Translations under genes and position numbers: made by a program | Assembly (NCBI GenBank): GCA_002256025.1 | Contig: NKIB01009726.1 | Coordinates: forward strand, 62,001-97,113 | Origin: Asterionella formosa | Taxonomy: Eukaryota | Length of the DNA: 35,113 bases | Direction: 5' to 3' | Notes under the pieces: generated by a model | What the model was told of the DNA's origin: nothing | The model's input: only the letters and a program-made list of their open reading frames with translations | Databases searched by the model: none | Shown here: piece by piece, positions 6,537 through 22,700 of the stretch | How positions within the stretch are numbered: position 1 is the first letter of the stretch | Layout: each line of letters begins with the position of its first letter

Positions 6537-7099
6537 CTTGAGAGAAACAGAGAAGAATGCGGTTGAAGATCACCAACGGCTTGCTTCTTGTCAAACAATT
6601 GCCATTTTTTGCGGCGGCATGTTCTCCACGACAGAATGACGGTTGTATGTTAGTAAAATAGATACCGGGAAATTACCAAGTTCTTTGAGGCCCCCGTCTT
6701 GCGTACAATATCCGAAATACGAAGATTGCGTCGCCCGGATACCTGTTGGGCGTTTAATGTTCGTACTATTTTCTTTCCTTAAAGGGCTAAATAACTCTTC
6801 GTCCGCCCGAAGATTTCGGAGGTACCAGTATTTTCTTGAACCACAGCAAGCAATCTTGGTTTCCCATTTTTTTTAAAAATTGTTATTTATATAATTATCA
6901 TTACTTTAAAATATTTTTATTATGATAATAATTTGCAACATGACGACTCTGCCAACACTATTGTCAACATTCCTGATGCATTATCAAGAATGTGTGCAGC
7001 CATGGATGCAACAATGGTTGTGATGGCAACTACTACCAGCAGCAGCCTTGCCAGCTGCATTGCAAAACGAGCGGGTATCTCAGTTCAATTTGGAAGCTC

Positions 7100-7366
7100 A
7101 ATCTGAGAGAGGGAATCAGCAATCACCATCCAACAACATCTGCTAAGCGAAAAAAATTAAACAACCACTTTTGTCAAGGCTCGAGTCATGTTGCTTGGTG
7201 GAAGAAGTTCCTAACAAATGAAAAGCACATGATGTTAGTACAATTGGACATGAACACATGGGAAGCAAGACTCTTCCACAAAAAACGTTCAAACTTACAT
7301 TTCAAAAGAGATACACCCCAAATTTTTCATTCACTGGACTATAAATTTTGCAGAAAATTAGGATGA
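7100..7366 (+). mobile_element. Degenerate fragment resembling a PIF/Harbinger-type transposase N-terminal region
   Basis: WWKKFL...DMNTWEARLFHK, then after a 1-nt shift in the A-run near 7280, TFKLTF. This resembles the FRRxFR(L/M)PF motif of Harbinger-like transposases. No DDE core or TIR pair was found. Confidence 0.4.
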
Positions 7367-7927
7367 ATATTTCTACACACCACTGAGAGAGGAAGAGGAA
7401 GAACCGAGATTGAGCTGTGTTGTTATTGCACTATTAGGGACATCATGTTGGCATGAACGAAGCTAACCAGGAGTCATCCAGAATGGACCAATTGAAACTG
7501 GTGGCTGGACTAGAGGATGCTGTGTTTGTCCACCACTTGCAGTTGTGGTTCATAGATTCCGAGAACAAATCAAGGTCCCCGTTCAAAGATGGGATAATGG
7601 AATTCTTGTCACCATCATGGCTTCTATTAATTTAGTGACTGAATTCAATACATCAGGTTGCTGTTTGTTGGAATGCCCTGATCACATATCGAATAGGTAA
7701 ATAAACTTATCGGTTGGATGCATTATTTAGAACATCAATTTTGTCTTCGAATTGACACATCATAGTATGTTATGGTTTGAGAATCTCGAAAATATCAGAC
7801 AGAATGAAATGCATTCTACTAGTACCATAGAGATTACATTGTTATTAATAAAATCAAATCAAGTTTTATGGTGAACTAAAGCAAGAAACCTTGTCACTCT
7901 ATAAGCTTAGATTGTTCTGTGGTAAAT

Positions 7928-7975
7928 GTGTGATATTGCCCATTAAATTTCGTGTGATATCGCTTATTAAATTTC
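7928..7975. repeat. 24-bp tandem duplication
   Basis: gtgtgatattgcccattaaatttc followed by gtgtgatatcgcttattaaatttc. Confidence 0.85.
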
Positions 7976-8575
7976 GAAGAGTGGATCATTCTTTGTCAAT
8001 CAGATCATCCTCCAAATTCCAAACACAATTTTGAAACTTATGTTGGAACCAGATTTTCATTCACACAATCATACTCATACACTTTCTTCACCAAGAGCGA
8101 ATTCAAAATTTCAATTCCGAATTGCTTGAAAGCCTTCATGGCTGGCATCTGAATTGGCTTTAGTAACGAGCGACTGTTGGGGGGATTATCTCTATTGCTT
8201 GTTGACTTGCAAAAGACGTCTTGTATATTGTATACAAGCCTTCAATTCCACCTCCAAGGGTCATCAATGTGGAGGATGCTTCAATGATACCAAGATTCTA
8301 GAAACTGTTGTCGTGTCCAACTTGTAACATCCTTTTCCTGAACAAATAGAATCAATGCGTTGTCACACTTCTTCCTCATGCACATCATTGCCTGCTCCTT
8401 GTCATTGCCTCCTTGCATCCCCTAAAAATCGCGATGTGACATCATTTTTGTCCAGGAAATAAGAGACATTACTGCTATGTATAACAATTGTGGAATTCTT
8501 ACCTTTGAACAATGTGGCAATACCAATTGGGATTTACCAATGTGGAGAAGGTACTATAATGGGGGCATGGTACCG

Positions 8576-8766
8576 GGTACTTGGCACTCACAGTATGATA
8601 CATGCTTAGGATGAGAAGGGACTACGCCAACAAGCAAGCACCAAACGAAAACATCCGTAATGTACAATATACTAATAGGTACATGGCACTCATAGTATGA
8701 TGCATGCTTAGGATGAGAAAGGACTATGTATACGCCAAGCAAGCAAATGACAACGCACATCCTTAA
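8576..8766. repeat. Two-copy tandem repeat, period 102 bp
   Basis: ggtac(t/a)tggcactca(c/t)agtatgat(a/g)catgcttaggatgagaa(g/a)ggacta starts at 8576 and 8678. Confidence 0.85.
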
Positions 8767-9098
8767 ACATAAAATTTCCTGTCATAAAGGGTTGGCGATT
8801 ATTGCTGTTTTCCAATATCTGCATTCAATAACAGAAAACTCTTTAATCACGGCACAACATTAATGTACTTTAAGGTCAACAGCACTGTGAAAAAGCGGAG
8901 CAAAACATCCCAGTTAGCATTAGTGTAATTTTCACTTTAACCGAGCTCATCATAGGCTGTGACAATCCTTTGTATAGATGTGCAGCATTGTTTAACTTGT
9001 TCATCATGATGAAACTACTTCTACATGTTGTTCTATGTCAAAACATAGCTACTGGATCTAAAGGCCCGAAAAAATATGTTATTGTTACTTTGCGATTT

Positions 9099-9213
9099 TC
9101 AACTTCTTCATCTCTCAGCCAATCCTGGTCATATTTCAGACTTAAATTAGCCATATATACAATAGCTTAAGTTTGAAATGTGACCAGGATTGGCAGGGAA
9201 ATGAAGGAAATTG
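9099..9213 (+). repeat. Long inverted repeat / hairpin (40-bp core stem, 21-nt loop)
   Basis: 9106-9145 pairs with 9167-9206: 35 Watson-Crick pairs, 3 G-U pairs and 2 mismatches on the + strand. A weaker extension reaches 9099/9213. Confidence 0.85.
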
Positions 9214-10156
9214 ATTTCTTCCAATCAACCCCTCATTTCCTTTCTCAATTGCAGTGACAAAACAATATAAATTAAGCTTAAACATCAATGAAAAGAACTT
9301 AGAATTCTTTTAACCTCCAAATCAATTGCCCTTTTGGTCGCATGTAAATTGAAGCACAACATGTTGCATGTGCCTGCTGCTCATCAATTCTCGCTCTATG
9401 ATAAAATGTCGTGTAGTCAGCAGTGGTATACCGGCATATTTTTTATAGCTACTGGTGTATGTTGTATGCTACGTAGATTTACCTGATGATTTTATACTCA
9501 CATCAATAATTTAAACACCCAATCAATTTATGCACTTATACATTTTGCAATAGCTATAGTAGAATATGGTAAGAATCTGAAGGAAGAACTTCCGGTATAA
9601 ATTGTTTTTAGGGGTAGATTACTGTTAAAAGGTCACGTCCTTTCCGTCTGACGGGGATCATCTTACGTAGGTCTTACCTGTTGTACCACTAGCTAGTATT
9701 GTTATCTTCTTTGCTCCTAGCCTTTGTGCTAGCTAGTTTTTGCTATTGACCTTACAAAGGTCAATTCACACTGTCTCTTAATTATAAAAGCTTAAACTAA
9801 AACTAAGTTTCAATCCCATGCATCACACTTTGAGAACCTGTTCTTTGTGTTCCCTTTTCGTTGATGTAAACCTTCTTCTGATTGATCTAAAACATCAATC
9901 TTGTCAGCAAGCTTCTTGACATTGGAAAACACCATTTGACTCATTGGACTATAGTCGAGTCCACAATCCTTGTGACTCATTATAGCCATTGATGCTACCG
10001 GTATATTCTTGACAGAGTACTGGTACCGTTATATTGTTGAGGTTGATGGGGTTTTTTCGTCGAGGAGATGCAGCAGCGTGAGTCGATGGCTTCCAATCAA
10101 TTCACCTTCGTTCCTTCCTCTTCGCTGATGTTGAATGATTAAATATTAATAGAATC

Positions 10157-11434
10157 ATGGAATCAAAAGCATGCAGTAATTTCCAGCTACTTCCAATTCA
10201 TAATCGATTGTGTGGGAGGATGCTACCGCTTTCCATGGGGCGGAAGAAAATACTAACTTGGTGGTGGCAGGCATGTCCTTGTCAAGGGACTACAACGCGA
10301 ACACCATGTATACAATGTAGATTTCTCGCTGGAATTTCGCAGTCCTTGTCAAAAGCAATGTTCAACATTCAATCGGATGGTTTGATACAGATGTCACCTA
10401 ATAATCGAAACCCTGGTTTACTATGGATCAACGGCGATCAAGCCCACTGCATAGAATATTCAGGGAGACTCCAAGGCAACGATGTCATTAAGATTGGTAA
10501 ATCATACAAGGATGCTTGGATGACCTTTGTTGTTCAGGGGAGCACGGTTGTCACACCCGATACGGAAAAGTGGATATCGACTCGGCAAGTCAAGCCTCAG
10601 CGACGACGTTCCTTGTTTCATAGCAAGCGGAACCAACCGATAAAGACGGAATCAGACAATAAAACACAGTACGAAGAAGAAACGGAATATTTATGTTCGA
10701 AGGAATCGGTAAAGAGAAGACTTTATCTGCGAAAGGAACGAATTCTACCTTATGACAGATTTTGGTTGCAAACGGATCATGGAGCTGTAGTAGACCGAAG
10801 CGGAAATGAAGTCGCTGCTAAACGAAGCAAAACTAAATTACATTGTGTCAAGAGGAAACGAAAGCTTTCGTTATCTTCATCTCCAGAGATTATCCCAAGA
10901 GAAGAGAATTGTGAACGCTCAATTACCAGCCATGAAGGCGACGAAAGCCTTGAGTCAAATCAACTTGCCACTAGCGATGCAAACTATTTTGGCCAGAATG
11001 TTCCTACAGGGAATCGGCCAGCTCCTGCTGTCGAAACAAATCGGGAAACTGTCAAGAGTCAAGAAAGTGAGATTGTATCCGAGAGAAAGGATCTCATTCG
11101 ACCTAGCACGCAGCAAAGGACGATGCTCAGAATAGGTCCTTCGGACCAATCTTCCATTCTATCACTCCCCAAATGTCACAGTATGGAACACCATCAAGTT
11201 TTTCAACCATCATCAGAAGGGGATGTGATCCTTGAAACGTGTCAACGGCTGGAGGCGAGCGAGACATATAAAAGAGAGAAGCCACCCTATGTGCAAGAGT
11301 TGACAACGTCACAGTGGAAGGCACGGCAGGTAGAGCATCCATCGCGATTTCATCGGTCATTGGCATCCATAGTAGTTTGTCAAAGGGTCCGACGAAACGA
11401 TCATGGTTGGTTGCCAGAAATATTGCAAGGCTGA
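10157..11434 (+). CDS. Hypothetical protein, 425 aa; N-terminal FHA-like region with Cys-rich insert, basic NLS-like tracts
   Basis: Long ATG-initiated ORF. The spacing LSMGR...LSK...NPGLLWING...LQGNDVIKIG resembles FHA motifs. KRKRK tract present. The domain call is tentative (~0.4). Confidence 0.7.
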   Translation: MESKACSNFQLLPIHNRLCGRMLPLSMGRKKILTWWWQACPCQGTTTRTPCIQCRFLAGISQSLSKAMFNIQSDGLIQMSPNNRNPGLLWINGDQAHCIEYSGRLQGNDVIKIGKSYKDAWMTFVVQGSTVVTPDTEKWISTRQVKPQRRRSLFHSKRNQPIKTESDNKTQYEEETEYLCSKESVKRRLYLRKERILPYDRFWLQTDHGAVVDRSGNEVAAKRSKTKLHCVKRKRKLSLSSSPEIIPREENCERSITSHEGDESLESNQLATSDANYFGQNVPTGNRPAPAVETNRETVKSQESEIVSERKDLIRPSTQQRTMLRIGPSDQSSILSLPKCHSMEHHQVFQPSSEGDVILETCQRLEASETYKREKPPYVQELTTSQWKARQVEHPSRFHRSLASIVVCQRVRRNDHGWLPEILQG

Positions 11435-11849
11435 TAAATATTGACACTAGCGTACCAGTAGTTTTAATACTCAACCAGAATATAAACATATTATGGCTAT
11501 TCATTGTGTATGATTCCGTTGTACACATTGTAGCTAATAAGCCAGGTCTTAAACAGAGATACAAAAATTAAAAATATGTTGCCCGACACACATCCGGCTG
11601 GTATGTTGCTTCCAGCAACACATTTTTTGTTGCTCCAAAATGTTTATTTGTCATATGTATGATCACTCCTGGAGATACAGTGTAGCAACACTAAATTTAA
11701 TGTATGTCATGTAATAATATTAATCAACAAAGAACACCATTTTTATCTCTGATAGCAACAACAGAAACGAAATTTGGGATGAGCAATCAGCAGCAATTAT
11801 TATTGCTACTCATGAAATTATGCTTGTCACCATTTGTAAATGACTTGCA

Positions 11850-11850
<1 letters not shown>

Positions 11851-11940
<90 letters not shown>
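11851..11940. repeat. (TTG)20 plus mixed CTG/TTG trinucleotide microsatellite, 30 triplets
   Basis: Directly visible in the sequence. Confidence 0.98.
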
Positions 11941-11942
<2 letters not shown>

Positions 11943-12229
11943 ACTTTTCATCATGGCATCATTCGATTGAGAATCCCATGAGAAGACAAGCGATCATAAC
12001 AACCAACTGCATCGGTTAGATAACGAATCGCTTCTGGCGTCATCACTGAACTGATTTCGCTTCAGACCGGTCATGATGGACGATGATCGGCATGGTGAAA
12101 GGTGAATTGCCGGAGTCCACTTTTCAGGCGACGAACAAAAACAAGGTGAATACTAGATGTATTATACTCAAATCTGAAGAGTACCGGTATATAAAATGGT
12201 TATAACTGCCAATTTCGGCAATCCCAGGG

Positions 12230-12469
12230 CTGGAAAACCGAGGGGCAATTGTCGCAAATTGTATTCCCAAAATGCGAACATAGGAAATATTCAAGATATA
12301 TTTTAATGATGGGCAATATCGGACCCATTGCAAATTTCGATGTGAAGATAGGAAATATTCGAAAAATATTTTATATGATGGGCTATAGAAAGCTAAAATT
12401 GAGATTTAGGCTCAATAGTTGTCCAGGAGGTAAGGTAATGGCGCGACGATAGCTAGTTTGAGAATTGTC
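12230..12469. repeat. Repeat family A, copy 1: 68-bp-period tandem unit followed by a conserved terminus; probable DNA-transposon end
   Basis: ataggaaatattc...atgatgggc occurs at 12280 and 12348. Terminus atagctagtttgagaattgtc (12449-12469) aligns with 17631-17652. Confidence 0.6.
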
Positions 12470-12476
12470 TCAACAA

Positions 12477-12665
12477 TACCGGTACCCTTCTCGGTGGGTA
12501 CATGCCTTCTCGTGGACATGTGTACTCGGCTGGGATGGCACTCAAAGGGTGACCTTCTCGCAGCGCCGGGGGCGCCACTCGTACTGTCAAACCATTCGCG
12601 CCACCCAGCTTCGAACACATGTATACTCGCAGGCAAGAGACCACCTCGGGCGTGTAATGCCTTCA
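12477..12665 (-). mobile_element. Repeat family B, apparently full copy: ~190-nt GC-rich fold-back element with putative 6-bp target-site duplication
   Basis: CAACAA at 12471-12476 and 12667-12672. Extensive self-complementarity with G-U pairs on the minus strand. CGAGAAGG occurs three times. A second partial copy lies at 15534-15632. Confidence 0.6.
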
Positions 12666-12895
12666 CCAACAACGAAAACGAATTTTTGGAGGAGGGATCT
12701 TTTCTGAAGATACAAAAAAAATTAAATTGTATTTCTGTTCAGATCGCGCCTTTATATTAGTCATGAAATAAAAGTTAAAATCATATGTATTACCTGATGG
12801 TACCACAGGTACCTAGAACCATGATTCACAAACCGGTAATTCCGGGACCAGTTCCACTCAGATTGTTACCGGTACATCCATTTGCAAGGCCAACC

Positions 12896-14686
12896 ATGCT
12901 GCGCTCCTGTTTCTGTTTCCTCCTGTTTTCTTCCTTTACCCGTTCCACCCAAGCACTCCCCTCCCTTGATGGCATTCCAGCGCAAGCTTGGAAATCTGCA
13001 AACTTGGGTCAGATTGGTGAAGTCTTTCAAAGTACACGTAGACTCTTAGAGGCGAACTATACTTCGGAGGAGGCTTCGCCGCCCCAGCGCCAATGCGGCC
13101 AGGTAATCGGCACTGCTTCGGTTGATGAAATTATTTCGTTCTTAACCACTGGAATATTGAAGGTTTTTTCTAACAGTTCGGGTCTATCGACTTTCATCAC
13201 TTTGGGGATCGAATCGTTGATTCACGTTATAACCTTCTCCGTCCAAGCACAAGTTGTTTGTGGAAGCTGCGATGAGATATTCGAACTATACGCAGGAGAA
13301 GAGTTTCTGAATGCCAGAGGGACGAATTCCTTCTTCTCCTATTGTGGTCCCGAGCGAAATGGCCACGATGCCATGCACAGTGCCCTCTTGTTAGTCCCAA
13401 TTGATAACCTGACTTCTAGCCCACCAATGCGCCAGCTTCCGACCGCAGTGTTCATGCATGGAACAACGGTTTCCACGCAGCTTGTACCTTCCGAATATTA
13501 CCCAAGTGACTTATCTACCTTCATAGATCTAAACGCGGACGATCAGGAGCAGATTTCCCAGTTCCTAGGGTTGTACGATGTCGTGGCGGCTATTTTTGCC
13601 TCGGCGAATGGTGTCGTAAGCATTGCACCGGACTACATTGGGTACGGTCAATCATACCTCTCACCAAAAAGTTACGCTGTGATTAACATGTATCAACAAG
13701 CAGCTGGTGTCTCTTGGCTAAAGGCCAAAACTCAGGTCGAAAAGAATACTAATGGTTGCACTACTTTTCAGAAGGCCGTAACGATAGCGGGATATTCCGA
13801 AGGTGGATTCAGCGCTGTCGCTGCTGCTCTTGCGTTACAAGCCATGAATATTTCAGTTTTCGGTGTAGCAACTGGAGGTGCGCCATTCGATCCCGCTCCG
13901 GAGCTTCAATTCGTCCAGAATCAATTCGATAATAACCCCAACCATACATGGTATCTGAACGTGCTTGTTCCTTTTCTTGGCAATTCTTATTCTTCGACAA
14001 ATGCTGATCTAGTGAACAGCGATATGAGCCAAGATTTCCTTACCTCTGTATGGACGGAAGAAGGCAACTTTACCATGAATGTACTTGCTTGGATGAACTC
14101 AACTCAGACCCGACTTAGCATCTATGAATTGGTCCCAGCAGATCCAAGCTCCATGATAAACCAGGCTGCTGTGACAGCAATGAGAGGCAGCATCGCCGCA
14201 GGTGGCTATAACTTCTGTACAGACGGGGACATTGGGAGCAACATTAATCTCCTCTGTGACGCCTTGCAATCTAACTCATTGGTTGATGAGTTGCTTGCTA
14301 TTCCTTTTCCCGTTACTTTATGCCATTCCCCTGACGACGAGGTGATCATGCAACCAAGAAATATTTCCTCTAACCCAAATATTTCCTCATTCAACCTGCT
14401 TGGGATGGAAGCTAGTGGTAGTCATTTTGAGGCAGCCGTGTTTTGCTTACTTGGTTTCATTACCCCATTCACCAGTTTTGCAACCTTTGGAGGAATCGGC
14501 ATTACCAGCGGCAATCTCCCTTTGGGTGATACCAGTGTTTGTATGCGTGCCAGCAACATAAGTACCAATGCGCCGTCGTCAAATCCTCCAACTGCTACTT
14601 CCAGTGCACCTCTTTCCTTTGCACTTTCTACTACCGCCCTTCTGACAGTAGCATTTCTCGTGGTTCCCTTTGCTTTGTCCTACTAA
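12896..14686 (+). CDS. Secretory lipase-like alpha/beta hydrolase, 596 aa, signal peptide and probable GPI anchor
   Basis: Motifs FMHGT, IAPDYIGYG, nucleophile GYSEGG, acid HSPDDEVI and His GSHFEA. The start is placed at caaccATG 12896, which gives a hydrophobic leader. Ser/Thr/Pro linker and a hydrophobic C-terminal tail. No intron is needed. Confidence 0.88.
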   Translation: MLRSCFCFLLFSSFTRSTQALPSLDGIPAQAWKSANLGQIGEVFQSTRRLLEANYTSEEASPPQRQCGQVIGTASVDEIISFLTTGILKVFSNSSGLSTFITLGIESLIHVITFSVQAQVVCGSCDEIFELYAGEEFLNARGTNSFFSYCGPERNGHDAMHSALLLVPIDNLTSSPPMRQLPTAVFMHGTTVSTQLVPSEYYPSDLSTFIDLNADDQEQISQFLGLYDVVAAIFASANGVVSIAPDYIGYGQSYLSPKSYAVINMYQQAAGVSWLKAKTQVEKNTNGCTTFQKAVTIAGYSEGGFSAVAAALALQAMNISVFGVATGGAPFDPAPELQFVQNQFDNNPNHTWYLNVLVPFLGNSYSSTNADLVNSDMSQDFLTSVWTEEGNFTMNVLAWMNSTQTRLSIYELVPADPSSMINQAAVTAMRGSIAAGGYNFCTDGDIGSNINLLCDALQSNSLVDELLAIPFPVTLCHSPDDEVIMQPRNISSNPNISSFNLLGMEASGSHFEAAVFCLLGFITPFTSFATFGGIGITSGNLPLGDTSVCMRASNISTNAPSSNPPTATSSAPLSFALSTTALLTVAFLVVPFALSY

Positions 14687-14881
14687 CTTTTTATAGAGGC
14701 TAGAATTAACACTTCAGCTTCGATAGTCTCACATCATAGCTATGTTGTATAGGCACAAGGAATAGTCTACATCATAGGGCAAAGCATCTCAGGAGTCATA
14801 TTTTCAAGTCGGTGTTTCGTTCATTTTCAAAATCAGATATTGCCATCAGGTTCGCACTGTGAGGCATCGTCTCAAATAGCT

Positions 14882-15533
14882 AATGGTCGAGGATGGATAA
14901 TAGTTCAGTTTTATATGTAGGCGGATCTTTGGTCAGATCTTAACATAAATACAAAATGGAAAAATTTGTTGCTCGGCCAAATTTATTGTTTCTCACACAT
15001 CCTCAAAATCAACAAGGAAGTCTCTTTGTCTATTTTGAAGCAAATTTCTGCCAGAGAAGATATGATTGATAATGACTCTAGAACTGATTCGAAATTATTT
15101 CCTACCCTATTTTCTGCTTTGCAACACCCGTCGTCACCAATTTTTTATTAGATGATGACTCTGAAAAATCACAGATTATTAAGAAATGTGGATGACCTCA
15201 TAAGAAGAAAATACTTGCTGCAACTGCTCCCAACAAATATGTAAAAAAGCGCAGCACATGCTACAAAGTAATTGATATCTTCTTTGATGAGTAACATTTT
15301 CGAGATATTTTGGATCTTGAAAAGACTCCAACTATGAGTGAGGTTGATGCAAGGAAATTTCCCCGATGCATCCCTGAAAATTATTACGAGAATTTCTATA
15401 CTTTTGATGAAGTTACAAAATCACTGTACCTGACAAACAAGACCCCCGTTTCTCGTACTCTCAAAAGTGGGAGAGCATTTAGGGAATTGGCAATCAAATC
15501 TACAGTCGAAAGGCCAAGATGTGATGTAACTGC
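14882..15533 (+). pseudogene. Decayed ORF of unknown family (stops plus one frameshift), abutting repeat B copy 2
   Basis: ORFs 14966-15151 and 15310- can be joined through one shift near 15145 and readthrough of isolated TAG/TGA/TAA codons to give ~200 protein-like codons. No recognisable motif. Confidence 0.35.
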
Positions 15534-15632
15534 TGAAGGCAATACACGCCCGAGGTGGTCTCTTGCCTGTGAGTATACAAACATGTGTTCGAGGCTGGGT
15601 GGCGCAAGTAGGTTGACCGTACAAGTGGCACC
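15534..15632 (+). repeat. Repeat family B, truncated copy (5' arm only), inverted relative to copy 1
   Basis: Matches the reverse complement of 12571-12665 with 10 substitutions in 95 aligned nt and one 4-nt insertion. Confidence 0.92.
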
Positions 15633-16002
15633 AAAGTCAATCCTGGAGGAGCAGCAAATGATGATTGATCAATTAAGGAGGCGATGGTACTGTAGGAACT
15701 ATTACTTGGTGTGATAGTTGTGGAGAAGCACTGGTGAGTGTATACATTGGTTTTGTCAGTGCAGTGTGATGTTAGCATGTTGTAGGAGGAGGAGAAGGAT
15801 GACCCAGATGGCTGAAGTTTCAAGCAAGGAGCAAGATCAATAATAAAAGCTTGGTTGGCAATGTTACTGTAAACAGTGATGGAGTCAGTTTCAGCTGTAG
15901 GTTCAATTCAGAAAATTATAAGTTGAGATGACAATCAATCTGCCTTGTCGGTTGCGTTGGGTGTGGTGTAGCATTGGAGCATGATCCAGTGCAAAACATG
16001 CT

Positions 16003-16200
16003 GATCTTATTGAAAGAAAGGAAGTACAAATTAAGTACTCTCCAACAGATGCAATGTCAGCAGACTGCATGACGAAACCACTGGTTGGAACGAAATTTAT
16101 TCATTTTTGTCAGCAGATTAGTATGAATTCAAAGAGAGCATCTGTGTCCAGCAGGAGTGTGTTGGAGAAATTATTTTAGGAAAGAAAATCCCGGTATAAA
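16003..16200 (+). mobile_element. Ty1/Copia (CoDi-like) relic: RNase H C-terminus, polypurine tract and start of the 3' LTR
   Basis: Frame from 16003 reads DLIERKEVQIKYSPTDAMSADCMTKPLVGTKF (Copia ADxxTKPL motif). It is followed by CAGCAGGAGTG|TGTTGG, with the LTR starting at 16160. The LTR end was not determined. Confidence 0.85.
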
Positions 16201-17434
16201 TAACCTACTACATATTGAATTGAATGAATCAAAAAGAATATGGTACCAGAGAAAACTCAGAATTCGAAAACAATCTACATCACCAGTAAAACCCATAATT
16301 CTATTAAAATTCTTAGGAGCAATTACAATCGAATTCTGCAACATTGTTGTTCATTTCTACAGCCTATTTGGTCCCTGAGCGACGTGTCCTTACAGGATAC
16401 AAGAAGAAAGCAATAGAGTGCTTTGGGACGCAATTTCAACAGTACCACAGCTAGGGCATCATTTGAGGCGTTAGAAATACCTTGGATTATTGGAATGTGA
16501 TGAATTAAGTTATCATCGAGAGTTTCAATGTGGACAACAATAGTGTTACAGCATTGTTGGTATGACCGTGATTTGCTTGGAAGCGGCCAAACAACAATCA
16601 ACAAAACATACCACAGTGAACTAACCAGGACAACAGGAGCTGTTCACTGATTCCTGCTGTCCTCCTGGCTGGTGTTTCTCACCTTAAGCTGATAGTTCTT
16701 TTAGCACATCAGAAGTGGCTTCGAGCCCTCTTTGTGATTGTTGATTTATGATAATGTAGCAATGAAAATAATGGTGATTGAAAAACCTACAAAACAATGC
16801 CGTTTTAGAGCAGTGGAAAAAGCCAACAAATGACCACTAAAACATGCTGCCAAAATGATCTGATTTGAGATTGTTTAAGACACATAGAAAACATACTAAA
16901 GAATTATAGCTAAAATTTAATGGCTGATCATAACTGACGAAAATACTGTTCATTGACAATGGAAGAAGACTAACTGTTTTGAGTTTTGATAACAAATGAC
17001 CGATCAAGGTCGCTATTGAAGAATATTTAACTGACTGAGGAGGATGTGATCAGCAAGGCCTTTGGATTTCAACAGATGGGGAACCACAATTTTAGTGCCA
17101 CATCAATGAATCAAGTATGATGGGATGATATGAATCCCACAAGAAGTCAAATCATCTGACAACCAGACATATCCATTTGATGAAGAGTTCAGTATTTGAT
17201 TCATCAATGAACACAGTTTGTAGAAGGCTTGAAATGCTTGGTGATGATGAGCATTGCAAAGTGGAATTACTGTTAACACTTTACAGAAAGCCATCATTTC
17301 ATGCCTTCACCTGGTTCATCCTACACTCTTCCAGTTTTGGCAGCCCATTTTTCTTAAGTAAATGGCAGTTGTTTGAGGTGCTATAGGTATTAGTAATCCA
17401 ATTTCCTTAAATACATGGCTGTCCATTTCAGCAG

Positions 17435-17652
17435 GCAAACTAGGGGCTGTTGAAAGTAGTTTGGCAATCCAAAATGGAGCATATGAAATTTACAAAAAAT
17501 GGTTTTTTAAAAGGTAAAATTGCAGACTTGAGTAATCCAAAAACTGAACAAATGAAATATGCAAAATATGTTTTTTAAAATGGGCGAAAGGGGATAAAAT
17601 GGCAACATGTATGTCAATACATGTATGTCAATAGCTAGGTTGTGAAATTGTC
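17435..17652. repeat. Repeat family A, copy 2 (diverged, same orientation as copy 1)
   Basis: aatccaaaa...atgaaat...ttttttaaaa at 17466 and 17534 (period 68). Shares aaac..aggggc..ttg upstream and the terminus atagctaggttgtgaaattgtc with copy 1. Contains a 14-bp duplication, acatgtatgtcaat x2. Confidence 0.55.
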
Positions 17653-18052
17653 AAGTAAGACCCTACTTGGGAAGGGTCTGCCCATTCTCCCTACCAGCGC
17701 TGCAAGAAGGTCTACCTGCAAGGGGCTTCGAAGCCTCGAAACTCCACCCCTCAGTCATGTCTTTTCACCTTCAGCCAGTGCCACGTTGTGATCAACTAAA
17801 AATACTTCCCCTGTGCTGCCATTTGCTAACAAAACCAACAAATGTGGCACCAAGAAACGAAGCACAGGCCCACCATTTATGATGTGGGCATCATGAAAAA
17901 GAAACATAACGGTATGGATGTCTTATGATAGAGAAAAATGTTTATATATCAACTGACTATCATCAACACATTTCTTTCAAATTCGCTCTGCGTAAGAATA
18001 TTACTATTTTTTAAGAGGAGGTATATTAATCGAGTACCACGTAAAATAAGTG

Positions 18053-19178
18053 ATGATATCAAAACAAATATTTGCTTTATTCCATTATTTGCTTCACACG
18101 GAACTGAACGGCACGAAGATCCTTGTTCTTTCCGAGAGGCTTTCTGGCCTCTGGCTGCTGTCCCTAAATTGGCTACGTTTTCGTATAATGCGTGAAAAGG
18201 TTCCGGGAGTGGTGCTTCAGAACTTCGCAACTGCAGCAAGGCTATTCTTTTCAGGTCTGTTTACAGAACGAATTGCTCTCTGTATTGAGGCTGACTCGTC
18301 GACTTTGCTATAGCAATCAGTGATAGCTTGTCAGAATCTCACCGCCTTGCCTGCTCGCTCTAACTCTTTAGGGATCAGAACGCCTGCATCTTTTGTCGCT
18401 GGTTCGTCGCTTGCAGCACTCTTGACAACGACAAAAATTTATCAGAATCGGAGGAGTGCATGGGATCACTTTTTGATTAGACTTTATCATGCTTTGATGT
18501 TGTCATCCTTCACCCTAGGTTTCTTGGTTGTTGTCGTTTCTACGGGAGCTAGTACTTCGCTACTGCACGGAGAATTCAACGCAATGGCCACATCGGCTTA
18601 CAGCATGCTGCGACGAGAGTTCGAGTATGAATTTCTTGTAACGAGGTGGTCCTTGATGATGGCTTTGTTGTGCTTTGTTTCAGGGGCGATTATTCGGATT
18701 GTCTTGGAATTCGATCTCGGAAAGAAAAATCGACGTAATCACGCTTTCGCTTTTGTCTTTATTCTGATTTCACTTCTCACAAACATGCTTAGCTACATGA
18801 ATACGACTCTGTAAGTCCAATGACATCAACCCATAAATATTCTGGGCGTTCAAGCCGACTAACATCTAAAACGCTTTTCCTTACTTTCACAGGTATTGTT
18901 GGGACAACCTGTTTTCTATGACCACCTATTTATTTCAAGTGAGTTAGCGACGCAGTGGGGTCAAAACCCCACATATATACACGCTGCTCATCACCTTTGT
19001 GTTCCAGTTCATAATCAATCAGGTAATTGAAGAACATCGTCCATTACAAATTATATCGATTATTTCAGCAGTAATTGGTTACTTTTTCATGATCCAGGTA
19101 GTTGTATCAGGTAAACTATCTGACGAAGACGACAAGGGTGGGTCGGAAAATGCCTTGCAAAAGACAAAGAAAGAATAG
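18053..19178 (+). CDS. Multi-pass membrane protein of unknown function, 4 exons (18053-18254, 18372-18810, 18893-18938, 19008-19178); the start could instead be ATG 18188
   Basis: Three GT-AG introns (18255-18371, 18811-18892, 18939-19007) join the pieces in frame: FFSGIRTPASFVAGSSLAAL...MNTTLYCWDNLF...FQFIINQ...KKE*. About 5 hydrophobic segments. Confidence 0.75.
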
Positions 19179-19728
19179 GAGGAATCATATAAACGATGTA
19201 ATGGGCTGCTCCTGTCAATAAGTGCAATGTTTTGGATTTCAAAAAATTCAAGCAGGATCCTTGCTCTGATGATCAAACCATTTTGAAATTTCTCAATGTG
19301 AGGTTGGGAGAAAAAGAAAAAGATTTTTATCGTATTGTGTAGTTCCGATGAAGGTCCACATTATCATCAGTCACAATAGGAATCTTGATGTGATGCAATT
19401 TTCCGTTTTTAGGGGTGAGGCATCTACCCAGGCTGACGCGTTGCTATAAAATAACATGGTTTTTTAATTCTGATCATACGCTCCGGTAAAGAGATACTGT
19501 CATGAGTTGTGAGTACGCATCTAGGTGTAGCTAGGTCAAGTAAGAAACAATTTTGTTGACTCGATAAAATTGCATAAGCACTGATATGGGTTTTCAGCTA
19601 CGAAAAATGCTCCAACACTCATGTTCGCCGATAATTTTTCACTTTTTTAGTCTTCTACATCAGTAGAATGTAAACTGTAGTTAGCTTCAAAACTTCGTAG
19701 ATTGGTTTATTGAATGAGAACTAATTGC

Positions 19729-22700
19729 TTAGTTTCGAGGCCAGCCACCATGATCAAACATGGGAAGATGATCGTAACGTCGATCATCGTCGCCAAGATG
19801 AGCGGAGGCTTCGGAACAAATGAGACCAAGCCGTCGCTCAAGAACATTTGATGTTGGAAATTCAGAAGCGTTTACAGTAACCCACTGCTTTATTTCACTA
19901 GCAGATGCGTTTGTCGGAAGTTGTCGTGCGAATCTCGTGCGCAGATCCTCCTCAATATAAGCTTTAGAAAAGAATCCCAATTCATTTTCGCGGTTTCTGA
20001 TGATGCCGAAAATTCCACCGTGGGCAGCATGTAGAACTAGTCCAACATCGTGGATAGAAGGGTTCCACCAAAGAGGTAATCCTTGCATGGACTTCTGCAT
20101 CATAGCTGAGCGAAGAATTCCTAAACCCATTTCACTAACGATTTTGCCACTACGCACAAGGTATTGCGCAGTTCGAAGAAGACGGGCTCGCCTGAGAATA
20201 GCAGCGGCATTAGCGACAGCCTCAATCGAATGCTTGCGGACGGGGACTGATGGATCAGGTACAGGCGTCATCAGTTCCTCCGTTGGTTCCTGATAAAGAC
20301 TGTATCCAAGGGCTGTCTCATATCGCCCCTTACTCCATCGAGTATTTCGAGTAGTAGGGCCATTACCATACACGCATAGCTTAACGCAATGAGGAAGAAG
20401 GACGCACTCTATGTAATCCTTGATTGCTGCGGGAGTGGGTGTGTCTAGACCATCCCCCAAGGCACTTGCAGCAGAAATGAAACTCTCGAAATTGAAAAGC
20501 TGGACACCAGACTTTTCATTCCCAAGCCACTCTTGCACTGATGGATGCAATGAGCAGTCACTTGAATTGTCCGCAAGTGCACAGTACCCAAAGTGTAGCG
20601 CAGTGACAGCCAAACAAGCACGGAGTCTTGCCGATTGTTGAAAAGGAGTCGACAAAATGCTTTGGGGGACCAGTGCAGGATCGATACATCCTCTTGCTCT
20701 GTTCTTACTTGATTCGCCGCCTCCCTTTGAGTCGACATCATCCATTGCAACTGCTTTCACTTCCTGGATGTTGTCGCAGGCTATCTTGATAGTTTCTCCG
20801 TTCATGCTGTCAGAGGTGTTGTTGAATCCTTCTGTCAATGTTTCGGGCTTTGCTACCGCATTCTCGTTCCTTTCATGCGATATCATCGCATCAATAATAT
20901 CATTATCAGTAAGAGTGAGAGCCAAGATTGCATAACGAGTAAGATTCATGGGAACGCCAAGCGCTCGAAGGTATTTCGGCGCATCTGGTCCGTAACTGAC
21001 TTGTGCGAGTTCCGCGGAAGCCATACCGACAGCAAAATCACTGCCATCATCCAAACTTCGGTGAGAAGCACCGCACTGGTTGGAGCTCAAACCAGTACCT
21101 CTAATCCAATCATTGGCAATGGCCAATGAAGTCGAGGACCTAGAGACGACTTCGCGATGAACCATTGCTTCAGCGGTCTCGTCAACAGGCACGCAATCAT
21201 CCTCATATTCTGGATTTATGGTTCCTAGTCCAGTCGAATCGAGTGAAAAAACCAGTCTCAATAGGCGCTCGTCAAGTAATCTCGCATCTGGCATAGGCAA
21301 AGTGTGCATGGACGGCTTCTTTTTTGTTTTTGACGCTTCAGCATCATCGTCTGCTTCAATTGAATGTACACCGATACGTATAGCTGATTTCATTTTCTGC
21401 GCTAGCCTTGAGAGGGTAATCAAGTGCGCATGGTCCTGATCACCGTCAATAGAATAAACATTGTCAGTTTCTACAGTTACTTTCTCTTCTTCCGATGCCT
21501 TCTTTTGAAGTGCGACAGCTGCGGCGACAGCTGCCTGTGCCTCCTTTTGCTGCTTGAATTTCGCCGATTCCAACGCGTCTTCGAAAACCTGTCGTGCTGC
21601 CACTGTCGCGGAGTCAAACTTAAAGATAGCATCTGAGCAACCTTGTTCTGCTATCATACATCGTTCAATTAATCGGCCGAAGACCAGCTCAGTATCTGAG
21701 CACATGGACTCATAATTCCCATACCCGTGTACGAAAGCTCCGACAATCAAAGCAATATCACATGAACGATCCCACCAAGTCGATGGATTCCTTGCGTGAT
21801 TTCTCGATTTCAAACGAGAACCTACAGCTATTAAAAGTTCTTCGGTGGTTACATAGCGCATCTTGAGATCTGCGTCTAGACAGGAAACGTCCTTCGCAAG
21901 ACAACCCCTTCTCCCAAGCTCTTCGACACCCAGCGCCGCAAGGATGTCATGGAGGGAGTCTTCCATAATCATATTTAAGCGGTTGAGAATTCCCAAACGT
22001 CGCAAACCTCGAAAAGCAGGTCCTTTGCGGAGCTCGATCATGTAGTCGGGGTCCGCTAGAGCTTGCGGAATTCTCAACGACCTTTGATTAGTTTCGATTT
22101 CAACGTACAGCATTATGGCGCTGCGCACTGAATCACATATCCAGTCAACCTCGCCTGGGAATGCATTACCGAGCCAAGTTGAAATAACGGGTCGTAACTG
22201 CCCTTCAATACAGCCATCATCACCTGATTTTGTAGTCAAGCCTTTCTTCAGGTATGCCATCAATAACGAAGCAGCTTGCAGCGCAATTTGATAGATAAAA
22301 GCTCGCGCAAAGACTTCAAGATCTTGTAATGGCAAGCTTGTGAGGTTGGAGTCGTTTCGGAGTTTCGAGAAGCGCCCAAATCCAAACCTAAGGACCGCAC
22401 TAGCTGCACGATTTCTCTGGGGGACTTCCCACGCCTGGCGAAGCTTTTCCAAAATAGGGTCCTCGAATTCCGCTCGGCGACTTGCTCTTGACTTTTCAGT
22501 CTTTTTTAGCTTCTTGGGTCTCACTTCACCTACAACTTTTAACATTGGTTCTAGGGGGGTGAGTGGAGGCGGAGTGGGCGTCTGAATGTCATTGCTGTCG
22601 TCTAATTCATGTTTCTTCCTTTCTTTAGCGACAGACTTTTTCTGGCGCCTTGCCAATCGCTCCCGCTCTCGCTCATCCTTTTCCTCCTGGATTTTGGCAT

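What the first reader, a model, noticed from the sequence alone, without database searches (positions are those of the whole stretch)
12471..12672. Candidate novel structured mobile RNA: ~190-nt rod with three repeats of one internal-loop motif and a target-site duplication
Seen on the minus strand: nested helices GGUGG/CCACC, UGCC/GGCA, ACAUGUGU/ACACAUGU, GCUGGG/CCCAGC, UGGCGC/GUGCCA, UGAC/GUCA and apical GUGGCGCC/GGCGCUGC. G-U pairs favour this strand. Three times a 5'-arm CGAG faces a 3'-arm CGAGAAGG, giving tandem G.A pairs next to an AA-containing asymmetric loop. CAACAA direct repeats flank it. There is no TIR, poly(A) tail, correctly ordered A/B box or credible ORF. Copy 2 starts at the same boundary (TGAAGGC); four of its 10 substitutions are CpG transitions and about three improve pairing with copy 1's 3' arm. 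The apical module (UGAC-AGUA / AGAA-G-GUCA) loosely resembles hairpin-ribozyme loop A, but no canonical loop B is present. Inference: a non-autonomous retro-mobilised structured RNA (SINE-, retrozyme- or viroid-like) with repeated protein-binding or catalytic modules.
Basis: partly seen in the sequence, partly recalled or inferred. Interest (0 to 1): 0.78.

Follow-up and report, generated by a model that had tools for sequence, protein, structure and literature searches.

The report
Hairpin end of diatom interspersed repeat
The flagged 190-base hairpin is real, but it is the conserved end piece of a roughly 700-base, very abundant non-coding mobile repeat in a freshwater diatom, not a small free-standing mobile RNA; its mirror-symmetric mismatch pattern is unusual and unexplained.

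Summary
The rod-like fold at 12466-12668 is real (RNA MFE -83.7 kcal/mol, z -3.5; a better-preserved relative folds at -106.5, z -10.4). It is not a self-contained unit. In 4 of 4 copies that show its inner end, it continues into the same ~500-nt sequence. It is the terminal module of a ~660-720-nt non-coding repeat family of a diatom, with about 1000-fold excess k-mer depth.

The window holds three family members: 11946-12668, a half copy at 15531-15632, and an old copy at 17117-17776.

However, the two whole copies are flanked by long direct repeats (28 nt and ~22 nt) that abut the sharp terminus.

The two arms are inverted repeats, except that at all five motif sites the four bases CGAG stand on the same strand in both arms. 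This gives five mirror-placed 2x2 mismatch loops.

No ribozyme, tRNA-like head or TIR was found, and covariation could not be tested.

Best reading (about 0.5): a non-autonomous retroposon copied by target-primed reverse transcription, with the hairpin at its constant end. Class, partner enzyme and the strand that folds remain open.

The parts
12466..12668 (-). Terminal palindromic module (the 'rod'). Arm A is 12668 down to about 12571, the apex is GGCGCC-CCC-GGCGC, and arm B is about 12567 down to 12466. CGAG faces CGAG or TGAG at mirror positions.
   Evidence: Folds; arm alignment; CGAG counts; homologous module in L005 folds at -106.5 kcal/mol, z -10.4.
11946..12465 (+). Rest of the same repeat copy ('remainder'). 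It holds a 68-nt internal tandem duplication (12272-12305 / 12340-12373). The far end is approximately at CATCATGG.
   Evidence: L005 22-714 aligns to 11971-12669 at 84% over 714 columns. L006 and L003 also align. Far-end alignment of 4 copies; tandem duplication.
12667..12694 (.). Right copy of the 28-nt flanking direct repeat. It begins at the sharp terminus, with 2-3 nt of overlap.
   Evidence: 23 of 28 identical to 11756-11783; 1 of 500, 0 of 500 and 0 of 2000 shuffles score as high.
11756..11783 (.). Left copy of the 28-nt flanking direct repeat.
11784..11945 (.). Extra sequence inside the direct repeats that other family members do not share: about 57 nt of unique sequence plus a (GTT/GCT)n microsatellite at 11841-11952.
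   Evidence: No match to L005 or L006 beyond the microsatellite. Read laying skipped 11841-11952 as a repeat.
15531..15632 (+). Half copy: arm A only, from the sharp terminus to the hairpin apex, in inverted orientation relative to copy 1.
   Evidence: It ends within a few nt of where L004 ends, and the sequences beyond the apex are unrelated. No flanking direct repeat. 4 of 4 substitutions are CpG transitions.
17117..17776 (+). Third, old and diverged family member: 61-63% identity to copy 1 in the remainder, with homologous far and near termini. Its hairpin module is decayed or rearranged.
   Evidence: Colinear blastn matches; termini alignments; module fold z +0.2 and -0.4.
17094..17116 (.). 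Left copy of the ~22-nt direct repeat flanking the third copy (AGTGCCAC...ATCAA). It ends 2 nt before the far terminus.
   Evidence: Alignment score alone is not significant (234 of 2000 shuffles), but an exact 8-mer sits directly after the near terminus and again just before the far terminus.
17777..17797 (.). Right copy of that direct repeat, starting directly after ...CCTTCAGCC.

Best explanation
The rod is the conserved terminal module of a ~660-720-nt, non-coding, very high-copy interspersed repeat of a freshwater diatom. Copy 1 (11946-12668) is an old insertion between two genes.

Most likely the family is a non-autonomous retroposon copied by target-primed reverse transcription. Copying starts at the constant end that carries the hairpin, which would be the 3' end of a plus-sense RNA. 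It runs towards a defined but less constant far end, and leaves long target-site duplications of variable length. Copying that breaks off at the apex would give the arm-A-only half copies.

The hairpin would be the structure by which the (unknown) partner reverse transcriptase recognises or primes on the RNA. Its five mirror-placed 2x2 mismatch loops would be the recognition features. These loops are C-UC-G facing C-UC-G in the plus RNA, and C-GA-G facing C-GA-G in the first-strand cDNA.

**Shown:** the fold, the family, the sharp end, the larger unit, the flanking repeats, the mirrored motif, and the stronger conservation of the rod.

**Inferred:** reverse transcription, the sense of the RNA, and the role of the loops.
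For: 1. **The rod is part of a larger unit.** L005 aligns to 11971-12669 at 84%. 4 of 4 copies showing the inner end of arm B continue into the same sequence.

2. **One sharp end.** 8 of 8 copies start ...TGCTGAAGGCAATAC with unrelated flanks. Loose ends of 63 (X1), 21 (X2), 3 (X8) and 5 (X11) contigs at 15531 have low consensus agreement, 0.37-0.55.

3. **Abundance.** Summed contig depth over 12502-12668 is about 880,000, against about 760 over the neighbouring gene in X1. In a second study, X2, the figures are about 11,000 against about 28. The tool states this is no copy number.

4. **Long flanking direct repeats at both whole copies in the window.**
- Copy 1: 28 nt, 23 of 28 identical, 0 of 2000 shuffles as high, right copy abutting the sharp end.
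- Copy 3: about 22 nt, with an exact 8-mer directly after the near end and just before the far end.
- From general knowledge of transposon classes, duplications this long and variable are typical of target-primed reverse transcription. DDE, LTR and Helitron insertion do not produce them.

5. **The far end is not an inverted copy of the near end** (score 7; 752 of 1000 shuffles as good).

6. **Two independent half copies** keep the sharp end and stop in the apical loop. This fits a 5'-truncation pattern.

7. **The rod is better conserved than the rest.** Copy 1 against L005: 183/198 against 417/498, Fisher P 0.002. The consensus-like copy also folds far better than decayed copy 1.

8. **Mirrored motif.** Arm B equals the reverse complement of arm A, except that all five CTCG read CGAG. 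L005 has 9 CGAG and 0 CTCG (P 5e-9). By my arithmetic on the positions, start plus end of facing motifs sums to 200 for four pairs and 199 for the fifth.

9. **Short-rod subfamily.** L002 and L003 share the same central deletion but lie at different loci, so the outer part of the rod suffices for spread.
Against: - No A-rich or simple-repeat tail at the sharp end: 0 of 8 copies.
- No Pol III head: ARAGORN found none and Rfam found none.
- Neither half copy has a flanking direct repeat: 0 of 2.
- Copy 1 carries 162-170 nt of unshared sequence, including a microsatellite, between its left direct repeat and the family's far end.
- The direct repeat of copy 3 is not significant by alignment score alone (234 of 2000), and I noticed it by eye.
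- Thermodynamics favours the strand opposite to the proposed RNA sense: -106.5 against -83.9 kcal/mol in L005.
- Summed depth does not rise towards the sharp end: 1.35, 1.20, 0.67 and 0.88 million from 12001 to 12668 in X1.
- L006 joins the remainder directly to arm A in the flipped orientation, which this model does not explain.
- No reverse transcriptase sharing this end was found, and none could be looked for. No whole genome is held and only 6 outside loci were obtained.
- Whether it is transcribed is not shown. All runs laid were contigs, and RNA contigs cross the terminus into flanks.
Confidence: 0.5

Rival explanations
1. It is the end of a DNA-level element that moves through single-stranded DNA (rolling-circle, Helitron-like, or another hairpin-recognising enzyme). 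The CGAG-bearing strand folds as ssDNA with five tandem sheared G.A pairs, and that fold is the end signal.
For: - The ends are asymmetric, with no TIR.
- A subterminal hairpin lies a few nt from a sharp end.
- The strand with G.A mismatches is clearly the more stable one.
- A precedes the end at position -2 in 7 of 8 copies and T at -1 in 5 of 8. This recalls the 5'-TT, A|T insertion and absence of TSD reported for a stramenopile proto-Helentron (PMC4067079, section 11 read).
- Helitron-like right ends are reported to be more constant than left ends, and one variant has a 5' stem-loop (PMC11417382, passages read).
- Palindrome-type variants occur: central deletions, apex breaks, and possible arm A joined to its own reverse complement (table 5c).
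Against: - Long flanking direct repeats at copies 1 and 3; Helitron-like elements make none.
- No CTRR at either end (read).
- The hairpin is about 190 nt, against 16-20 nt in Helitrons (PMC4067079 passages).
- The -2/-1 bases pair with GCAAT inside the element in the L005 fold, so they are probably element sequence, not target.
- No RepHel partner is known.
Confidence: 0.12
2. It is a solo LTR, or a fragment of one, of an LTR retrotransposon. The palindrome would be part of U3 or U5.
For: - The sharp end reads TG on one strand and CA on the other in 7 of 8 copies.
- The length of about 0.7 kb, the internal tandem repeat and the TATA-like stretches are LTR-like.
- Copia-type elements are present nearby.
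- Recalled, from no call: LTR elements dominate known diatom genomes.
Against: - Flanking repeats are 28 nt and ~22 nt, not 4-6 nt.
- The far end begins ATGATGG/ATATGG, with no TG..CA inverted ends.
- 0 of 8 outer flanks share a PBS, a PPT or any internal sequence, and the loose-end consensus at 15531 is near random.
Confidence: 0.07
3. The rod is a self-contained palindromic MITE or foldback DNA transposon. It sits, by nested insertion, at a fixed place in another repeat.
For: - Both arms are homologous right to their tips (TGCTGAAGGCAATAC against TGCCTCAACAATAC).
- L006 shows the module flipped at the same junction.
- Half copies and central deletions are typical of palindrome instability.
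Against: - 0 of 4 copies show the rod with an unrelated flank at its inner end.
- Beyond the outer end, the host repeat never resumes: 8 of 8 unrelated flanks.
- No short fixed TSD flanks the rod.
- The CGAG motif stands in direct, not inverted, orientation in the two arms. A duplicated TIR would not give this.
Confidence: 0.06
4. One reading: a ~190-nt rod-shaped, viroid-, retrozyme- or ribozyme-like RNA that is itself the mobile unit.
For: - There is a strong rod-like fold on the minus strand.
- The internal loops are repeated.
- RNA-library contigs hold rod sequence (X8 record 30, X11 record 13).
Against: - The unit is larger and the claimed TSD is internal sequence.
- No Rfam ribozyme at E up to 10.
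- RNA contigs run across the end into flanks.
- The AGUA of the apical module is not kept in L005, copy 2 or L004.
- Copies decay by CpG transitions like silent DNA.
Confidence: 0.04

Closest known systems
Non-autonomous non-LTR retroposons that share a 3' stem-loop with a 'stringent' partner LINE (for example the eel UnaSINE1/UnaL2 type; recalled, from no call)
   Same: - Non-coding and high-copy.
- One constant end carrying a hairpin.
- Truncated copies that keep that end.
- Long flanking duplications of variable length (28 nt and ~22 nt here).
   Different: - No tRNA, 7SL or 5S head.
- No tail at the constant end (0 of 8).
- The hairpin is ~190 nt with five mirrored 2x2 mismatch loops, not a short stem-loop.
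- The partner LINE is unknown.
- The sense of the RNA is not shown.
Helitron-like elements, especially the stramenopile proto-Helentron and the HLE2-reverse type (PMC4067079 section 11; PMC11417382 passages)
   Same: - Asymmetric ends.
- A subterminal hairpin next to a sharp end.
- One end more constant than the other.
- Abundant non-coding derivatives.
- A single-stranded intermediate would explain the strand-specific mismatches.
   Different: - Flanking direct repeats are present.
- No TC/CTRR ends.
- The hairpin is about ten times longer.
- No RepHel link.
MITEs and foldback elements
   Same: - An imperfect palindrome of about 200 nt that folds as a rod.
- It is common near genes.
- Variants arise by central deletion.
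   Different: - It is not mobile on its own here.
- The far end of the real unit has no inverted repeat.
- The motif stands in direct orientation in both arms.
Penelope-like elements and retrozymes (recalled)
   Same: - Target-primed insertion with variable TSDs.
- Frequent inverted or truncated arrangements at the ends.
- Structured RNA in the terminal repeats.
   Different: - No hammerhead or other ribozyme match.
- No pseudo-LTR pair was seen.
Imperfect hairpins whose mismatches mark one strand: integron attC sites and parvovirus telomere 'bubbles' (recalled)
   Same: An otherwise palindromic sequence with fixed, strand-specific unpaired positions. These make sense only in a folded single strand.
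   Different: - Different kingdoms and different enzymes.
- Here the loops are five regularly placed CGAG/CGAG sites.
- No enzyme is known for them.

Membership tests
SINE (Pol III-transcribed, LINE-dependent) | Head derived from tRNA, 7SL or 5S, with internal A and B boxes | tested here: not met
   ARAGORN found 0 genes in 11800-12800. There was no tRNA, 7SL or 5S match in 11500-16500 at E up to 10. A B-box-like GTTCGAGGC exists in arm A, but there is no matching A box (read; the consensus is recalled).
SINE (Pol III-transcribed, LINE-dependent) | A-rich or simple-repeat 3' tail directly before the TSD | tested here: not met
   0 of 8 copies have a tail at the sharp end. At the far end, only copy 1 has a microsatellite, and that is followed by 57 more nt before the direct repeat.
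Target-primed (non-LTR type) retroposon | Flanking target-site duplications of variable length, often over 10 bp | tested here: inconclusive
   2 of 2 whole copies in the window have them: 28 nt (0 of 2000 shuffles) and ~22 nt (234 of 2000 by score, with an exact 8-mer at both junctions). 0 of 2 half copies have one. No outside locus shows both flanks.
Target-primed (non-LTR type) retroposon | Constant 3' end with copies truncated from the 5' side | tested here: inconclusive
   The end is sharp in 8 of 8 copies, and 2 copies stop at the apex. However, the depth profile does not rise towards that end, and the sense of the RNA is unknown.
Target-primed (non-LTR type) retroposon | Partner element encoding a reverse transcriptase and sharing the 3' end | not testable with these tools
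   No genome is held. 6 short metagenome loci were obtained. ORFs on them gave only a tocopherol cyclase.
MITE / TIR DNA transposon | [quoted passage not shown] | tested here: not met
   Far end against arm A: score 7, with 752 of 1000 shuffles as good. The flanking repeats are 22-28 nt.
LTR retrotransposon (solo LTR) | TG..CA ends, 4-6-bp TSD, and PBS or PPT next to the ends in intact copies | tested here: not met
   TG is present at the sharp end only. The far end reads ATGATGG. Flanking repeats are 22-28 nt. 0 of 8 outer flanks are alike.
Helitron-like elements | 5' TC (or TT) and 3' CTRR, insertion between A and T (or T and T), no TSD, short 3' hairpin | tested here: not met
   There is no CTRR at either end. 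Direct repeats flank 2 of 2 whole copies. The A at -2 and T at -1 are probably element bases. Definitions are from PMC4067079 and PMC11417382 (passages).
Self-cleaving ribozyme-bearing elements (hairpin, hammerhead; retrozymes, viroid-like RNAs) | Match to a ribozyme core | tested here: not met
   cmscan of 11500-16500 against 4227 Rfam families at E up to 10 gave 3 weak hits, none in the rod.
Self-cleaving ribozyme-bearing elements (hairpin, hammerhead; retrozymes, viroid-like RNAs) | Circular or unit-length RNA | not testable with these tools
   All runs laid were contigs.
Kink-turn | A three-nt bulge 5' of tandem G.A pairs on the bulged strand (definition recalled) | tested here: not met
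   In CGAGAAGG the extra A's lie 3' of the G.A step (folds).

The most novel reading that the evidence does not exclude
The rod is a previously undescribed kind of transposon end signal. It is a ~190-nt hairpin whose two arms are kept complementary except at five mirror-placed CGAG/CGAG sites, so that one strand carries five tandem G.A loops and the other five tandem U.C loops. This pattern would be read by the mobilising polymerase. It could equally act in the first-strand cDNA, where snap-back at the GC-rich palindromic apex would yield the apex-truncated half copies, the arm-A-plus-reverse-complement palindromes and the flipped module of L006. If so, it would define a new diatom retroelement/partner system with hairpin-dependent priming.
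Probability: 0.15. Interest if true: 0.65.

Novelty: new variant of a known kind. Interest (0 to 1): 0.4.

Why it matters
Diatom genomes are known mainly for LTR elements (recalled, from no call). A thousand-fold repeated, non-coding, apparently target-primed retroposon would add a class that standard repeat pipelines probably leave as 'unknown'.

The element sits between and inside gene ends. Copy 1 fills most of an intergenic region, and a 2074-nt RNA contig of the downstream lipase-like gene starts inside its last 44 nt. It may therefore shape promoters and UTRs.

The mirrored-mismatch hairpin is a clean, testable case of a structure selected at the single-strand level. It gives a handle for finding the partner enzyme, by searching for a coding element with the same end.

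Tried and rejected
- **Whole genome.** None is held.
- **More copies.** One metagenome scan gave only 6 loci. Two viral and two prokaryote-genome scans gave 0.
- **Earlier findings of the scan.** Nothing by sequence or place, and nothing relevant by words.
- **Covariation.** 0 of 65 pairs have a change on both sides. Only 2-4 rows carry both arms, so the test says nothing either way.
- **TIR or direct repeat between far and near parts.** Not above shuffles.
- **Other copies of the 25-nt terminus (up to 6 mismatches) in the window and loci.** Only the 8 known copies.
- **Self-blast of the window.** At default scoring it found only copy 2. Copy 3 appeared only with permissive scoring.
- **Clusters of CGAG elsewhere.** One other cluster of 7 lies at 24701-25080, inside the CHD-type coding region. 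I did not follow it up.
- **Possible empty site.** One X1 contig joins ~11757 to 12669 (its 23 in-between letters match 11735-11750). Its shorter side is only 24 nt, which could lie wholly within the 28-nt repeat, and the left flank is itself repeated. I do not count it.
- **Parts without RNA cover, and the depth ratios of RNA to DNA runs.** These are contigs only, so I drew no conclusion on transcription.
- **A stretch near the far end resembling part of arm B in inverted orientation.** Score 23 against a shuffle maximum of 26. Not significant.
- **Module of copy 3.** It does not fold better than shuffles, so it gives no comparative support for the structure.
- **Literature.** Four searches (listings and abstracts only) showed no description of such an element. 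Repbase and Dfam cannot be searched here. The supplements of the Helitron papers were not opened.

Full report
**What is at the coordinates**

The minus strand of 12471-12672 folds into a single rod of -83.7 kcal/mol (z -3.47; 0 of 200 shuffles as good). The plus strand folds less well (-71.4, z -2.12). With DNA parameters the two strands differ little (-38.8 against -35.8). No Rfam family, ribozymes included, matches 11500-16500 at E up to 10. ARAGORN finds no tRNA-like gene.

**The organism**

The window is gene-dense, with very long open frames and ordinary eukaryotic genes: Mon2, a CHD-type SNF2 helicase, an LRR protein, SDE2/SPRY and a SpoU methylase. The named relatives of the methylase, at about 50% identity, are pennate diatoms: Cylindrotheca, Pseudo-nitzschia and Bacillariaceae. 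The public runs that hold the stretch are labelled algal, freshwater or lake metagenomes. No whole genome is held.

**The rod belongs to a high-copy family**

Contigs of four runs were laid on 11500-16500 at 80% likeness.
- In X1 the summed depth over 12001-12668 is 0.67-1.35 million, against about 760 over the adjacent single-copy gene.
- In X2, from another study, it is 6,900-21,000 against about 28.
- The tool warns that this is no copy number, but the excess is about three orders of magnitude.

A scan of metagenome contigs with a 22-mer of the 5' arm gave six loci, L001-L006. Scans of the viral and prokaryote collections gave none.

**The rod is not the unit**

L005 aligns to window 11971-12669 over 714 columns at 84%. 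L006 and L003 align to the same region. All four copies that show the inner end of the 3' arm (copy 1, L005, L002, L003) continue into the same sequence, and no copy has the rod alone. The left 'CAACAA' of the proposed target-site duplication is therefore internal, conserved sequence.

The outer end is sharp. All 8 copies read (A)(T)TGCTGAAGGCAATAC... and have unrelated flanks beyond it. Loose ends of 63, 21, 3 and 5 contigs in the four runs start at 15531 with near-random consensus.

With permissive scoring, a third and much older member appears at 17117-17776. It is colinear with copy 1, 61-63% identical in the non-hairpin part, and has recognisable far and near termini. Its hairpin module has decayed (z about 0). 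The far end of the family is about ATGATGG/ATATGG. It bears no inverted or direct likeness to the near end.

**Flanking repeats**

- *Copy 1.* The sequence directly outside the sharp end, 12667-12694, is repeated at 11756-11783. 23 of 28 bases are identical, and 1 of 500, 0 of 500 and 0 of 2000 shuffles score as high. Between the left repeat and the family's far end lie about 165 nt that other members do not share: 57 nt plus a (GTT/GCT)n microsatellite.
- *Copy 3.* AGTGCCAC...ATCAA follows the near end directly and also ends 2 nt before the far end. By alignment score alone this is not significant (234 of 2000). The exact 8-mer at both junctions is what makes it persuasive, and I found it by eye.
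- *Half copies.* Neither half copy has such a repeat.

One X1 contig looks like an empty site, but it is too short to count.

**Variants**

- Copy 2 (15531-15632) and L004 keep only the outer arm and stop within the apical loop. The sequences beyond are unrelated (score 25, equal to the shuffle maximum).
- L002 and L003 lie at different loci but share a deletion of the central ~100 nt between two ACATGT sites. A short rod can therefore still spread.
- L006 joins the non-hairpin part directly to arm A, so the module is flipped there. The plurality consensus before 15531 in X1 and X2 (...GGAAT) resembles that junction. This arrangement is unexplained.
- Table 5c lists contigs that seem to join arm A to its own reverse complement. 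I treat this as a lead only.
- Copies decay by CpG transitions: 4 of 4 substitutions in copy 2, 3 of 5 in L004 and 0 of 7 in copy 1.

**The motif**

Aligning arm A with the reverse complement of arm B shows 61-66 matching columns of about 100. At all five places where arm A reads CGAG, the reverse complement of arm B reads CTCG or CTCA, so arm B itself also reads CGAG or TGAG.

L005 has 9 CGAG and 0 CTCG in 200 nt, and copy 1 has 7 and 0. The expectation is 0.52 per 200 nt (P 5e-9 and 1.3e-6). By my arithmetic on the positions, facing motifs sit at mirror positions: start plus end equals 200 for four pairs and 199 for the fifth.

In the L005 fold the GA steps face each other, in four 2x2 loops and one 2x5 loop. 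L005's rod folds at -106.5 kcal/mol (z -10.4) on the CGAG strand and -83.9 (z -6.1) on the other. An inverted duplication cannot give this pattern, so it points to selection on a folded single strand. G.U counts do not favour either strand.

Between copy 1 and L005 the rod is better conserved than the rest: 92.4% against 83.7%, Fisher P 0.002. Covariation cannot be judged from 2-4 informative rows; 0 of 65 pairs show a double change.

**Interpretation**

The following points fit target-primed reverse transcription of a non-autonomous element better than a DDE, LTR or Helitron mechanism. The class properties are from general knowledge; the Helitron features are from PMC4067079 and PMC11417382, passages and one section read.
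- One constant end and a second, unrelated end.
- Long flanking duplications of different length at both whole copies.
- Half copies that keep the constant end.
- No coding capacity.

The half copies suggest that the constant hairpin end is the 3' end of the RNA. That would make the plus strand the sense strand, which is the thermodynamically weaker strand. That conflict, the missing tail, the missing duplications at the half copies and the flipped L006 module keep my confidence near 0.5. I could not test transcription, strand or partner enzyme.

**Comparison and novelty**

The closest known things are LINE-dependent retroposons with a 3' stem-loop, Helitron-like ends, and foldback elements or MITEs. 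The element fails the tested defining features of tRNA-type SINEs, MITEs, LTRs, Helitrons, ribozyme-bearing elements and kink-turns (see the membership table).

Four literature searches (listings only) showed nothing like it. Repbase and Dfam are not available here.

I rate it a new variant of a known kind. It is an ordinary sort of object, a non-autonomous mobile repeat, with an unusual and cleanly defined end structure.

Noticed in passing
window 15985-16441: This is the 3' end of a truncated Ty1/copia-type retrotransposon. A 64-aa frame matches the C-terminal tail of long proteins that carry PF07727. It is followed by a probable 281-nt LTR at 16161-16441 reading TGTTG...CAACA, with a sharp, multi-flank boundary at 16441 and very high summed depth. 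The LTR limits are my reading of the sequence.
   Followed up: partly
window 11841-11952: A (GTT/GCT)n microsatellite of about 110 nt lies inside the flanking direct repeats of copy 1. A poly(A)-library contig with 0 mismatches runs from 11500 into it (record 25). The 3' UTR of the upstream gene therefore probably ends in inserted sequence.
   Followed up: no
window 11543-11650 and 14934-14990: A further short repeat (79% over 43 nt, plus a 23-nt match) lies downstream of both neighbouring genes. Summed depth over 11500-11833 is also 80-170 times the single-copy level. This is possibly another small mobile or 3'-UTR element.
   Followed up: no
window 12793-12816; L001 and L005 outer flanks: GGTACC-rich stretches (GGTACCTGGTACC-like) lie 50-130 nt outside the sharp end in 3 of 8 copies. 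Copy 1 also has a CCGGTA insertion inside the rod. This may be a target preference or a separate simple repeat.
   Followed up: no
window 12625-14700: A 2074-nt metatranscriptome contig (X11 record 14, 31 mismatches) covers the lipase-like gene (Atlas lead) and begins 44 nt inside the element's end. The insertion is therefore shared with a lake population and may lie in, or supply, the gene's 5' UTR or promoter.
   Followed up: no
L006 (metagenome locus), last 55 nt: The non-hairpin part of the repeat is joined directly to arm A in the opposite orientation to the other copies, at the same junction (GGGAAT|TGC). This would mean the module exists in flipped form. It rests on a single contig, so it is unexplained.
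   Followed up: partly
window 24701-25080: A second local cluster of 7 CTCG in 200-nt windows lies inside the CHD-type helicase coding region. It is probably a codon-usage effect.
   Followed up: no
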